Below, piece by piece: positions 15,612 through 16,750 of a stretch of DNA of 20,307 nucleotides. Each line of letters starts with the position of its first letter. Positions within the stretch are counted from its first letter, which is position 1. The notes beneath the pieces were generated by a model. It did not search any database. It was not told where the DNA came from and saw only the letters and a program-made list of their open reading frames with translations. The translations under genes and the position numbers were made by a program. The DNA lies in IMG/VR virus record IMGVR_UViG_3300032164_003094; one strand, written 5' to 3'. The DNA is from a virus.

Positions 15612-16253
15612 TCAACGATCGTGGACCTTGCCGATCAAGGCCTCACGCCACAAGGTTACAACGGCCTCCTCGTCAAGGTGGTCCTGGAGGAACGAGAAGT
15701 CCTTCCGGACACGCGCGACAGCCTCCTCCACGTCCTTCCCGGTCACCCTGTCGATAAGCCTCAGGGACTCCCTGGTGAACTTCAGGAAGACGGGCCCCAT
15801 CCCCGTAAGGGCCTCCGCCCCGTGCTTCTGCAGGGCCTTCAGGACCTGGCCGTGGGCCCGCCTCAGCCAGTCGCGCTCGGCGACCGGGTCGGCCGTAGCG
15901 AAGCCGGAGAGAGCCGACCGCTTGTGGAAGCGAAGCGCGAACACGGCCGCCAGCCCCGCCGTCGCCGACATCTTCATGTCGCGCACGGCCGCCTTGCGGA
16001 AGGCCAGCTGCACGGTCGCCCCGGAGGACCCAGGACTGGCGGTGATGAAGTAGTGAGGGCCGTCCTTCATGCAGTGCGACCACGCCCGGGCCATTGCGAC
16101 GCTCGCGTCCGCCTTCCGGACGAGCGTGACGGACGGGGGACCGTCCGGGGAGGCGTCCTTGAACACTGGCTCGCAAGACTCCACGTCGGAGTGCCTCATC
16201 CACTCCATGGCCTCGCCCGGCAGGGCGAACTTCGGGAAGGGCGCGGAGGTCAT
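15612..16253 (-). CDS. Hypothetical protein, about 213 aa, translationally coupled (ATGA) to the upstream macro-domain gene.
   Basis: ATG at 16251-16253 overlaps the TGA stop of the macro-domain gene. Protein-like composition from MTSAPFPKF onwards. The longer track versions (to 16412 or 16362) have Arg/Gly-rich junk N-termini. Confidence 0.5.
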   Translation of the reverse strand: MTSAPFPKFALPGEAMEWMRHSDVESCEPVFKDASPDGPPSVTLVRKADASVAMARAWSHCMKDGPHYFITASPGSSGATVQLAFRKAAVRDMKMSATAGLAAVFALRFHKRSALSGFATADPVAERDWLRRAHGQVLKALQKHGAEALTGMGPVFLKFTRESLRLIDRVTGKDVEEAVARVRKDFSFLQDHLDEEAVVTLWREALIGKVHDR

Positions 16254-16750
16254 AGGTCGTAAACGTACACGTCCACGCCGGCCAGGGCCTTCTCGACGAT
16301 CGGGCCAACCTCGGCCCAGGTCCCTCCCGCCAGACCGCATCCAATGCGCGGAAGGTGGACACTGCACTCGCCTCCGGGGTCTTTCACCTCCGCCGCGACC
16401 TTCAACAGGCACTTTTCAAGCGCGTCGTAGCGAAGTGGGATCCTTCCCGGAGTCCCATAGCCGTCCTGAGCGACCATGTTCACCACGTTGATCGGGTCGC
16501 CAGCGCTCTCCGGCCGGTCGTCCCGGACAAGACACCACTGCACGTTTCCGAGCTCGAAAGCGCCAGCGTTCAGCTCATGCCCGGTTGAGGCCCACTTGCG
16601 ATACCGGCGTTCCGGCTCCTCCCACCGTTTCGAAATGGCGAGAACGAAACCAGCTCCCCATCCGCCTTTGTCGTTGCAAACGTGGACGATTACCCTTCTC
16701 CCGCGGAGAACCCGCGGCCTCGTGGCATCGCCCTTCACGTACGTGATCAT
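16250..16750 (-). CDS. Macro-domain protein (ADP-ribose binding/hydrolase), TARG1/DarG-like Macro_2 type, 166 aa.
   Basis: The N-terminus MITYVKGDATRP...VIVHVCNDKGGWGAGFVLAISKRW resembles the macro-domain phosphate-binding segment. Later, LPRIGCGLAGGTWAEV resembles the second macro-domain Gly-rich loop. Confidence 0.65.
   Translation of the reverse strand: MITYVKGDATRPRVLRGRRVIVHVCNDKGGWGAGFVLAISKRWEEPERRYRKWASTGHELNAGAFELGNVQWCLVRDDRPESAGDPINVVNMVAQDGYGTPGRIPLRYDALEKCLLKVAAEVKDPGGECSVHLPRIGCGLAGGTWAEVGPIVEKALAGVDVYVYDL

What the first reader, a model, noticed from the sequence alone, without database searches (positions are those of the whole stretch)
15612..16750. Macro-domain gene translationally coupled to an unknown 213-aa partner, next to MVP
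The macro domain is a reader/eraser of ADP-ribose. Its stop overlaps the start of a 213-aa protein of unknown fold (ATGA). Such macro-plus-partner pairs are typical of ADP-ribosylation toxin/antitoxin or signalling systems (for example DarT-DarG, macro-sirtuin pairs). In eukaryotes MVP is poly-ADP-ribosylated by vault PARP, so ADP-ribose genes beside an MVP homolog are suggestive. Alternatively, phage macro domains can act as counter-defence against host ADP-ribosylation-based immunity (DarTG) or NAD-derived signals (Thoeris-like). The partner has an H-Y-F/SPGSSG region that I cannot assign to any ART family by eye.
Basis: partly seen in the sequence, partly recalled or inferred. Interest (0 to 1): 0.7.

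Follow-up and report, generated by a model that had tools for sequence, protein, structure and literature searches.

The report
Phage macrodomain hydrolase beside replication-module protein
A giant bacteriophage carries an ordinary-looking ADP-ribose-removing enzyme, probably to undo host DNA-tagging defences. The unknown gene fused to its end is not a toxin partner but a fast-evolving accessory protein of the phage's DNA-replication gene block.

Summary
A 166-aa macrodomain gene (16250-16750, minus strand) overlaps a real 213-aa gene (15612-16253) by ATGA, just downstream of a major vault protein (MVP) homolog.

The macrodomain belongs to the ALC1-like class, SCO6735/BT1257 subclass (PDB 5e3b, E 5e-36). 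Its catalytic His/Asn/Gln and glycine loop are intact. SCO6735 removes thymidine-linked ADP-ribose from DNA.

The partner is not an ADP-ribosyltransferase (ART), sirtuin or hydrolase:
- It has no profile hit.
- No column is invariant across its roughly 30-member, huge-phage-only family.

Macro-partner adjacency is limited to one GC-rich huge-phage clade in which the whole block is syntenic. In one member a homing endonuclease separates the two genes and MVP is absent. More distant partner homologs have no macro. They lie between DnaB helicase and a DnaG-type zinc-ribbon protein, or in tandem arrays elsewhere.

Best reading: an orphan, DarG/AdfM-like counter-defence macrodomain cassette was inserted upstream of a replication-module accessory gene. 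It is not a toxin-antitoxin or signalling pair.

One AT-rich huge phage independently has MVP followed by a macro gene. This keeps a weak MVP-ADP-ribose lead open.

The parts
16250..16750 (-). Macrodomain gene (166 aa), ALC1-like class, SCO6735/BT1257 subclass. Predicted ADP-ribosyl hydrolase.
   Evidence: PDB 5e3b E 5e-36, 2fg1 and 2afc about 5e-35, all full length. phrog_335 E 3e-29. Weak DarG model hits. Conserved H23, N26, Q95, G97 and the PRIGCGLAGGTW loop. Pfam Macro is below its cut-off.
15612..16253 (-). Partner gene (213 aa). Huge-phage-specific family of unknown function. N-terminal helix plus antiparallel sheet, then a C-terminal helical bundle ending in a conserved tail helix (EE.VV.LWRE..V.KVHDR).
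16250..16253 (-). ATGA stop/start overlap between macro and partner.
   Evidence: Read directly. Same ATGA in L001 and TGATG in L002. 4-nt overlaps in L004 and L007. Broken in L025 by a 550-bp insert.
16756..16800 (-). Terminator-like hairpin (15-bp stem, 5-nt loop, T-rich tail) between the MVP stop and the macro start.
   Evidence: Folding energy -43.2 kcal/mol, z -7.7. The stem is kept through compensatory changes in L001 and L002.
16808..19486 (-). Major vault protein homolog (892 aa). Present in the window, L001 and L002; absent from L025.
   Evidence: MVP_shoulder E 2.6e-29 and Vault_3. PDB MVP chains E 4e-21. 38-41% identical homologs in huge-phage records LR756500/1/3 and nine IMG/VR contigs.
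19559..20235 (+). Divergently transcribed 78-aa gene (19559-19795) and NUDIX hydrolase (19792-20235). They travel with the macro in L001 and L025.
   Evidence: NUDIX E 2e-14. Nearest solved relatives are generic DIPP/MutT enzymes, not ADP-ribose pyrophosphatases. Synteny.
15074..15598 (-). Variable 174-aa gene between the partner and the zinc-ribbon gene. No family hit. Replaced by 180-, 370-, 135- or 99-aa genes, or by nothing, in relatives.
14428..15072 (-). DnaG-type CHC2 zinc-ribbon protein (214 aa from the ATG at 15072). The most constant downstream neighbour of the partner family.
   Evidence: Zn_ribbon_DnaG E 7e-6. 47-94% identical in L001, L025, L026, L027. Start inferred from homologs.
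13959..14441 (-). Conserved 160-aa gene of the replication block, function unknown.
   Evidence: Homologs in L001, L002, L025, L026, L027, L031.
9906..14026 (.). Rest of the replication block: family-A DNA polymerase (9906-12902, minus) and full-length DnaJ (12917-14026, plus).
   Evidence: PolA is 60-95% identical across L001, L002, L025, L026, L031, L033.

Best explanation
Two functionally separate genes lie side by side in the early/replication region of a GC-rich huge ("jumbo/mega") bacteriophage.

**(1) The macro gene**
- It encodes a stand-alone ALC1-like macrodomain of the SCO6735/BT1257 subclass.
- It most likely hydrolyses ADP-ribose from a macromolecule, with ADP-ribosylated thymidine on single-stranded phage DNA as the leading candidate.
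- That would make it an orphan-antitoxin-like counter-defence against host DarT-type ADP-ribosyltransferases, co-expressed with the replisome genes it would protect.
- It arrived as part of a small accessory cassette: NUDIX and a 78-aa gene, divergently transcribed, with MVP present or absent. The cassette was inserted into the replication block.

**(2) The 213-aa partner**
- It is not an enzyme of ADP-ribose metabolism.
- It belongs to a fast-evolving, huge-phage-restricted family of non-catalytic proteins: an antiparallel sheet plus a helical bundle with a conserved C-terminal docking-type helix.
- Its recurring home is the slot between the DnaB helicase gene and the DnaG-type zinc-ribbon gene.
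- It is therefore most likely a replisome-associated adaptor or regulator.

**The junction**
The ATGA overlap reflects the generally overlapping gene packing of this operon, not a dedicated two-gene system.

**What is shown and what is inferred**
- Shown: homology, residue conservation, fold-search negatives, and gene neighbourhoods.
- Inferred: the substrate of the macro, its counter-defence role, and any replisome role of the partner.
For: **Macro**
- Full-length matches to SCO6735, BT1257 and 2afc.
- SCO6735 His24, Val25, Asn27, Gln85, Gly87 and the Gly126/128 loop are all conserved (against PMC9411070).
- SCO6735 de-ADP-ribosylates DarT-modified ssDNA and rescues E. coli and S. coelicolor from DarT.
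- AdfM is a functional precedent in jumbo phages. Phage NADAR orphan antitoxins are another (PMC11825919).
- The macro family occurs in 414 isolated phage records. 56% of jumbo phages carry a macro domain (PMC9503650).

**Partner is not catalytic**
- No profile or PDB sequence hit.
- Foldseek against viral structures gives best E 0.049.
- The 31-sequence family alignment has no invariant column.

**Neighbourhoods**
- Macro directly precedes the partner in L001-L007, but the whole block is syntenic there.
- L025 (PolA 84% identical) has an HNH homing endonuclease between the two genes and no MVP.
- L026 (PolA 60%) reads NADAR, 276 aa, DnaB, 113 aa, partner homolog, Zn-ribbon, g160, DnaJ, PolA, with no macro.
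- L027/L028 read DnaB, partner homolog (1-nt overlap), 161 aa, 126 aa, Zn-ribbon, g160, DnaJ, with no macro.
- L008/L011 carry partner-family members in tandem arrays without a macro.

**Gene packing and evolutionary rate**
- Tight or overlapping junctions are the rule in this operon.
- Macro and partner are 62% and 49% identical between the window and L001. Flanking genes are 80-89% identical. This fits host-interaction genes.
Against: - The two lysines that position DNA in SCO6735 (Lys34, Lys89) are Ala33 and Gly99 here, and they are absent in all phage copies examined. A DNA substrate is therefore not secured. Protein, RNA or small-molecule ADP-ribose derivatives remain possible.
- No host, no DarT and no expression data are available.
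- Within the GC-rich clade the macro-then-partner order is never rearranged, across about 8 sampled lineages at 39-96% partner identity. A clade-specific functional link cannot be excluded.
- The partner is not a constant member of the replication block. L031 and L033/L034 have DnaB, Zn-ribbon, DnaJ and PolA without a detectable family member in that slot.
- Context was recovered for only a handful of the roughly 30 family representatives.
- The afdb50 fold library was unavailable.
Confidence: 0.6

Rival explanations
1. Clade-specific two-protein unit. The partner is a non-catalytic adaptor that binds the macrodomain and delivers it to the replisome (DnaB or primase) or to MVP, or regulates it. 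The coupling would then ensure roughly equal amounts of both proteins.
For: - The macro-then-partner order holds in every GC-rich clade locus.
- Stop/start overlap is kept in at least 5 lineages.
- Both genes evolve faster than their neighbours.
- The partner has a chaperone- or adaptor-like architecture and a conserved C-terminal tail helix.
Against: - The family exists without a macro in L008, L011, L026, L027 and L029.
- L025 tolerates an opposite-strand endonuclease gene between the two.
- Overlaps are generic in this operon.
- No macro-partner fusion appears among the roughly 30 representatives.
Confidence: 0.15
2. This would be an ADP-ribosylation toxin/antitoxin or writer/eraser pair of the DarT-DarG or macro-sirtuin type, with the partner as the transferase.
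For: - Macrodomains are often paired with ARTs or sirtuins. This macro type is translationally coupled to a Sir2 gene in Streptomyces phages.
- There are weak DarG model hits.
Against: - The partner has no ART or SIR2 profile hit.
- It has no ART or Rossmann fold.
- It has no conserved catalytic residue.
- It has no similarity to the phage Sir2.
- The macro lacks DarG's C-terminal DarT-binding domain and scores 25.8 bits against a 250-bit cut-off.
- The genome is a lytic-type huge phage, not a defence island.
Confidence: 0.03
3. MVP-centred ADP-ribose module. The phage MVP shell binds NAD+/ADP-ribose in its shoulder domain, as human vaults do. The macro (with NUDIX, and perhaps the partner) would work with it as one ADP-ribose-handling unit.
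For: - Human vault shoulders bind ADP-ribose, NAD+ and ADP (preprint 10.64898/2026.05.01.722283).
- The window's MVP has a strong shoulder domain.
- MVP, then two genes, then a macro recur in LR756500, a 24.5%-GC huge phage. Its macro is only 26% identical and passes the Pfam Macro cut-off.
- NUDIX lies on the other side of MVP.
Against: - L025 keeps NUDIX, g78, macro and partner but has no MVP.
- None of the nine IMG/VR MVP loci, nor LR756501, has a macro within 5-6 kb. Their neighbours are unrelated: ankyrin, PTH2, dUTPase.
- A conserved terminator-like hairpin separates MVP from the macro.
- The NUDIX is not of a recognisable ADP-ribose pyrophosphatase type.
Confidence: 0.12
4. Metabolic macrodomain. 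The enzyme would process free ADP-ribose derivatives (ADP-ribose-1''-phosphate, O-acetyl-ADP-ribose) as part of phage NAD+ or RNA-repair housekeeping, unrelated to immunity.
For: - PHROG labels the family 'phosphatase'.
- Yeast Poa1p (ADP-ribose 1''-phosphate phosphatase) is a detectable relative at E 2.6e-10, though over residues 2-52 only.
- The DNA-positioning lysines are missing.
- Related phage macros sit next to ribose-phosphate pyrophosphokinase genes in Vibrio phages.
- The window has a CN-hydrolase with NAD-synthetase-like similarity.
Against: - The best matches by far are SCO6735 and BT1257, at E about 1e-35 full length, against a partial hit to Poa1p.
- SCO6735 prefers DNA-ADP-ribose.
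- Fast evolution fits conflict genes.
Confidence: 0.1

Closest known systems
SCO6735 (Streptomyces coelicolor) and BT1257 (Bacteroides thetaiotaomicron) macrodomains, ALC1-like class
   Same: - About 50% identity over the whole domain.
- Same single-domain size.
- Same His-Val-Cys-Asn motif, catalytic Gln in place of the TARG1/DarG Lys, and identical PRIGCGLAGGTW phosphate loop.
   Different: - Encoded by a phage rather than a bacterium.
- Lys34 and Lys89, which position DNA in SCO6735, are Ala and Gly here.
- There is an extra 8-residue insertion (RDDRPESAGD) before the strand carrying the catalytic Gln.
AdfM (anti-DarT factor macro) of nucleus-forming jumbo phages (PMC13309987)
   Same: A stand-alone macrodomain in a very large phage. 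The proposed role is the same: removal of DarT2-made ADP-ribose from phage DNA.
   Different: - AdfM is DarG2-like, with a catalytic Lys78. The window protein is SCO6735-like, with Gln.
- There is no evidence here for a phage nucleus.
- The activity is untested.
DarG antitoxin of DarTG type II toxin-antitoxin systems
   Same: Same macrodomain class. Weak model hits: NCBIfam E 6e-6, PADLOC E 3.5e-7.
   Different: - No C-terminal DarT-binding domain.
- No DarT neighbour.
- No catalytic Lys.
- The score is far below the family cut-off (25.8 against 250 bits).
Macro-Sir2 gene pairs in Streptomyces phages (e.g. Annadreamy gp151/gp152)
   Same: The same macro subfamily (46% identical), translationally coupled to a neighbouring gene in a large lytic phage.
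   Different: There the coupled gene lies upstream and is a Sir2-type protein. Here the coupled gene lies downstream and shows no similarity to Sir2.
Phage NADAR orphan antitoxins against DarTG1 (PMC11825919)
   Same: Same logic of a phage carrying an antitoxin-like DNA de-ADP-ribosylase. A NADAR gene sits beside the homologous replication block in relative L026.
   Different: A different fold and a different base specificity (guanine). No NADAR was found among the window proteins scanned.

Membership tests
Macrodomain, ALC1-like class, SCO6735/BT1257 subclass | Full-length sequence homology to solved members | tested here: met
   5e3b E 5.2e-36 (query residues 2-165), 2fg1 4.7e-35, 2afc 6.1e-35.
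Macrodomain, ALC1-like class, SCO6735/BT1257 subclass | Pfam Macro (PF01661) gathering score | tested here: not met
   13.4 bits against a cut-off of 22, with no Macro_2 hit at E<=0.1. The Pfam model is insensitive to this subclass, so this does not overturn the PDB matches.
Macrodomain, ALC1-like class, SCO6735/BT1257 subclass | Catalytic and structural residues His24, Val25, Asn27, Gln85, Gly87, Gly126/Gly128 (PMC9411070) | tested here: met
   H23, V24, N26, Q95, G97 and PRIGCGLAGGTW. H23, N26 and Q95 are invariant across the 9 aligned sequences; G97 is kept in all but the distant L023 macro.
Macrodomain, ALC1-like class, SCO6735/BT1257 subclass | DNA-positioning Lys34 and Lys89 | tested here: not met
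   Ala33 and Gly99 in the window. Neither Lys is present in any phage copy aligned.
Macrodomain, ALC1-like class, SCO6735/BT1257 subclass | Hydrolysis of thymidine-linked ADP-ribose on ssDNA | not testable with these tools
   Needs a biochemical assay.
DarG antitoxin (DarTG) | Macrodomain plus C-terminal DarT-binding domain (about 330 aa), family score | tested here: not met
   166 aa only. NCBIfam NF048014 scores 25.8 bits against a cut-off of 250, and the match covers profile positions 21-146 of 338.
DarG antitoxin (DarTG) | Adjacent DarT ADP-ribosyltransferase gene | tested here: not met
   The five proteins scanned nearest the macro (MVP, partner, g174, g160 and the macro itself) have no DarT hit in NCBIfam or PADLOC. 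Pfam and PHROG scans of these and the other window ORFs also show no ART.
ADP-ribosyltransferase (DarT, PARP, diphtheria-toxin-like), considered for the partner | ART fold with a conserved H-Y-E or R-S-E triad | tested here: not met
Sirtuin (macro-linked SirTM type), considered for the partner | SIR2 Rossmann domain | tested here: not met
   No Pfam hit. The predicted fold is a sheet plus helical bundle. No similarity to phage Annadreamy Sir2.
AdfM (phage anti-DarT factor macro) | Stand-alone phage macrodomain that protects against DarTG2 | not testable with these tools
   The architecture fits, but the catalytic residue type differs (Gln instead of Lys78). Protection needs an experiment.
Major vault protein (the neighbouring gene) | MVP repeat, shoulder and cap-helix region | tested here: met
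   MVP_shoulder E 2.6e-29 and Vault_3 E 1e-7. PDB MVP E 4e-21 over residues 530-827.

The most novel reading that the evidence does not exclude
MVP and macrodomains may be functionally linked in huge phages. A phage-built, vault-like shell would bind NAD+/ADP-ribose through its shoulder domain, as human vaults do. It would work with a macrodomain hydrolase (plus NUDIX, with the 213-aa protein as a tail-docked client) as an ADP-ribose-handling or NAD+-protecting device during infection. The independent MVP-then-macro arrangement in a 24.5%-GC huge phage would then point to a vault-ADP-ribose connection older than the eukaryotic vault PARP and TEP1.
Probability: 0.1. Interest if true: 0.8.

Novelty: new member of a known kind. 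Interest (0 to 1): 0.35.

Why it matters
- **The macro.** Phage macrodomains that erase host DNA ADP-ribosylation were demonstrated only in 2026 (AdfM), and that enzyme is DarG-like with a catalytic Lys. This gene would extend the idea to the SCO6735 subclass, which uses Gln, and to uncultivated GC-rich huge phages. Such copies are common: 414 isolated phage records carry this family.
- **The partner.** The work corrects a tempting guilt-by-association call. A translationally coupled unknown next to a macrodomain is not necessarily its transferase. It instead defines a small, fast-evolving, huge-phage family that usually sits between the helicase and primase-like genes.
- **The MVP lead.** The recurring MVP-macro adjacency is a cheap, testable lead on what bacterial and phage vault proteins do.

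Tried and rejected
**Partner, negative searches**
- Pfam, PHROG, NCBIfam and PADLOC scans: nothing.
- PDB sequence search: only a chance hit at E 1.2.
- tblastn against 50,697 phage records at E<=1: no match.
- The afdb50 library was not available.

- The search for related loci with the broad family alignments A2, A5 and A6 failed for lack of a conserved stretch.
- Single-protein scans for P0015 and P0019 found nothing in IMG/VR.
- Word-indexed homolog searches with A2 and A5 returned only a few of the representatives found by the exhaustive search, which limited context look-ups.

**Ideas tested and dropped or weakened**
- The proteins flanking distant family members in L008 are full-length paralogs of the partner: rejected. 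Only the last 17-19 residues align.
- The NUDIX is an ADP-ribose pyrophosphatase: not supported. Its nearest solved relatives are DIPP/MutT types.
- MVP loci are generally enriched in ADP-ribose genes: not seen among the 25 most frequent Pfam families from 90 neighbouring proteins.
- The zinc-ribbon protein has annotated relatives in isolated phages that would name the slot: only one weak, unannotated hit.
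Full report
**1. Observation**

The minus strand carries a 166-aa ORF (16250-16750) and a 213-aa ORF (15612-16253). Their junction reads GACCTATGACC, so the stop and start share ATGA.

Both frames look coding in this 62-66% GC region. GC3 is 0.74 for the macro and 0.90 for the partner. The overlapping alternative ORFs have GC3 of 0.54-0.64 and an inflated GC1. Homologs of the partner align from its first residues, which supports the ATG at 16253 over the upstream GTG at 16412. 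The gene upstream (16808-19486) is a true MVP homolog.

**2. The macro gene**

Pfam Macro alone would not have supported the call: 13.4 bits against a cut-off of 22, with no Macro_2 hit. Other evidence does:
- The protein aligns end to end with the solved macrodomains SCO6735 (5e3b, E 5e-36), BT1257 (2fg1) and 2afc. The ALC1 macrodomain, yeast Poa1p, TARG1 and DarG follow at weaker scores.
- It matches phrog_335 at E 3e-29.
- It hits DarG models weakly.

SCO6735 has been characterised (PMC9411070). It removes DarT-made thymidine-linked ADP-ribose from ssDNA faster than DarG or TARG1, and it rescues E. coli and S. coelicolor from DarT. It depends on Asn27, Gln85 and Gly128, while Lys34 and Lys89 position the DNA.

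In a 9-sequence alignment the window protein keeps H23, V24, N26, Q95, G97 and an identical PRIGCGLAGGTW loop. It has Ala33 and Gly99 in place of the two lysines. Neither lysine is present in any of the phage copies. I therefore predict an active ADP-ribosyl hydrolase but treat the DNA substrate as inferred.

Stand-alone macros of this family are common in large phages:
- 414 of 50,697 phage records carry one.
- 56% of jumbo phages carry a macro domain (PMC9503650).
- A jumbo-phage macrodomain, AdfM, has been shown to strip DarT2 marks from phage DNA (PMC13309987).

**3. The partner**

No family library or PDB sequence matches it, and no isolated phage encodes a detectable relative.

The family is tiny:
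- 8 close homologs among 5.8 billion clusters.
- 30 representatives among 1.84 billion when searched exhaustively with a profile.
- Every context recovered is a metagenomic or huge-phage contig.

Across 31 members no column is invariant. The conserved part is the last 60 or so residues, G.DV.EA..RVRKEF.FL.DH..EE.V..LWRE..V..V(H/M)(D/E)x.

A first AlphaFold model was mediocre (pLDDT 72). Adding five divergent members gave pLDDT 85 and pTM 0.77, with all five models agreeing. The fold is a helix, a five- to six-stranded antiparallel sheet (residues 27-84) and a five-helix bundle.

Fold searches found nothing convincing:
- Foldseek against viral models is also negative.

The partner also bears no similarity to the Sir2 protein that is coupled to this macro type in Streptomyces phages. 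A transferase or eraser role is not supported.

**4. Is the pair conserved?**

Within one clade, yes. All seven loci recovered through close partner homologs have the macro immediately upstream, with ATGA, TGATG or 4-nt overlaps. In those genomes, however, the whole block is syntenic: NUDIX, 78 aa, MVP, macro, partner, a variable gene, Zn-ribbon, 160 aa, DnaJ, PolA. Nearly every same-strand junction is overlapping or tight.

| Locus | Relatedness | Arrangement |
|---|---|---|
| L025 (274-kb IMG/VR contig) | PolA 84% | Keeps NUDIX, 78 aa, macro, partner. Has no MVP. A homing endonuclease on the opposite strand lies between macro and partner; it is homologous to the window's 1479-2048 ORF (E 1e-14). 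|
| L026 (436-kb contig, GC 47%) | PolA 60% | NADAR, 276 aa, DnaB, 113 aa, partner homolog, Zn-ribbon, 160-aa homolog, DnaJ, PolA. No macro, no MVP. |
| L027/L028 (GC 50%) | n/a | DnaB, partner homolog (1-nt overlap), 161 aa, 126 aa, Zn-ribbon, 160-aa homolog, DnaJ. No macro. |
| L008 (393-kb contig) and L011 | n/a | Family members sit in tandem arrays of overlapping small genes. No macro within 8 kb. |
| L031 (replication block of the L008 phage) and L033/L034 | PolA 62% and 67% | No detectable family member between DnaB and the Zn-ribbon gene. |

The recurrent neighbours of the partner family are therefore the helicase and primase-like genes, not the macro. Even that association is facultative. 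Comparing L001 with L026 suggests that [NUDIX, 78 aa | MVP, macro] was inserted between the small post-DnaB gene and the partner.

**5. Expression anatomy**

A 15-bp hairpin with a T-rich tail lies between the MVP stop and the macro start. Its folding energy is -43.2 kcal/mol, with z -7.7. L001 and L002 keep it through compensatory stem changes. Only about 16 nt separate it from the macro ATG. Macro and partner are thus probably expressed by read-through at a lower level than MVP (inference).

**6. MVP link**

MVP homologs at 34-41% identity occur in the huge-phage records LR756500, LR756501 and LR756503 and in nine AT-rich IMG/VR contigs.
- None of the nine IMG/VR loci, nor LR756501, has a macro within 5-6 kb. 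Their neighbours are unrelated.
- LR756500 (GC 24.5%) does have MVP, then 181-aa and 207-aa genes, then a 259-aa macro protein. That macro is 26% identical to the window's and scores 22.4 bits on Pfam Macro.

A 2026 preprint reports ADP-ribose bound in the shoulder of human vaults. Two adjacencies among roughly ten lineages is more than I would expect by chance for genomes of several hundred genes. That is a rough inference, not a computed statistic. MVP is dispensable for the macro-partner arrangement (L025), and a terminator separates MVP from the macro. I keep this as a low-probability lead.

**7. Rates**

Between the window and L001, MVP, Zn-ribbon, the 160-aa gene, PolA and NUDIX are 80-89% identical. 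The macro is 62% and the partner 49% identical. This pattern is typical of host-interaction genes.

**8. Conclusion**

The finding is real at the sequence level, but its headline interpretation is not supported.
- The macro is best read as a new member of a known kind: an orphan, antitoxin-like phage macrodomain of the SCO6735 subclass.
- The partner is an uncharacterised, probably non-catalytic accessory protein of huge-phage replication regions. Its coupling to the macro follows from cassette insertion and compact gene packing.

Biochemistry on the macro, toxicity and interaction tests on the partner, and a genome-wide MVP-macro distance test would settle the open points.

Noticed in passing
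window 16756-16800 (minus); L001 9483-9525; L002 1148-1190: A strong terminator-like hairpin lies between the MVP stop and the macro start. The stem is preserved by compensatory substitutions in two relatives. Only about 16 nt remain before the macro ATG, which suggests attenuated read-through expression of macro and partner.
   Followed up: partly
L008 6794-8905; L011 7393-9276; L031 6417-7000; L026 7594-7935: Adjacent, otherwise unrelated small proteins in huge phages all end in the same roughly 19-residue tail, (E/D)(E/D)VL..W.E..V..VME(S/A/T)*. The window partner ends ...EEAVVTLWREALIGKVHDR. Profile comparison aligns only the tail. It could be a shared docking helix, or partly a coding-embedded ribosome-binding site for the overlapping downstream gene. 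Not resolved.
   Followed up: partly
L025 7398-7991 (minus): An HNH/EndoVII-type homing endonuclease gene is inserted between the macro and partner genes. It is homologous to window ORF 1479-2048 (E 1e-14). The same contig lacks MVP altogether.
   Followed up: yes
L026 4603-5178: A NADAR-domain gene (Pfam E 2.3e-52) lies just upstream of the DnaB, partner-homolog and zinc-ribbon block in a relative that has no macro. NADARs reverse guanine ADP-ribosylation, so this may be an analogous anti-DarT1 accessory at the same genomic neighbourhood.
   Followed up: partly
L023 (LR756500) 12001-16459: A 24.5%-GC, 462-kb huge phage has MVP, a 181-aa protein with an N-terminal GGAKGAD motif (no Pfam family), a 207-aa protein, then a 259-aa macrodomain protein with a C-terminal extension of about 110 aa.
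   Followed up: partly
window 17400-17560 region of the MVP gene (protein residues about 420-455): The MVP homolog contains a short collagen-like Gly-X-Y / Ala-Gly-rich insert (…GAQGATGPQGPIGLRGFAGPAGAAYQGA…). This gave a weak tail-fibre PHROG hit.
   Followed up: no
window 13959-14026; L001 12219-12289: The 3' ends of the DnaJ gene (plus strand) and the 160-aa gene (minus strand) overlap convergently by about 70 bp. The overlap is conserved in L001.
   Followed up: no
window 14428-15072: The 'primase-like' protein has only the DnaG CHC2 zinc-binding domain. No TOPRIM or catalytic domain was detected, and no primase catalytic domain was detected among the window ORFs scanned. The listed 263-aa ORF (GTG at 15219) is probably too long; homologs start at MELEKTSVQEW (ATG at 15072).
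   Followed up: partly
window 2012-2788 (minus): A carbon-nitrogen hydrolase domain protein (Pfam E 8.5e-25, N-terminal half of the model only) has weak similarity to a phage 'NAD synthetase' PHROG. This may be an NAD+-related accessory gene.
   Followed up: no
window 1479-2048, 5587-6282, 8964-9839, 12917-14026: Other phage-type genes in the window: an HNH/EndoVII endonuclease, a sigma-70 region-2 protein, a dCTP-deaminase-like protein and a full-length DnaJ with its zinc-finger domain. PolA and MVP have their best matches in uncultured huge-phage records of 462-735 kb. The window therefore comes from a GC-rich huge phage.
   Followed up: partly
window versus L001, L002, L025: Macro and partner are far more divergent (41-71% identity) than the flanking replication genes and MVP (74-95%) in the same genome pairs.
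   Followed up: partly
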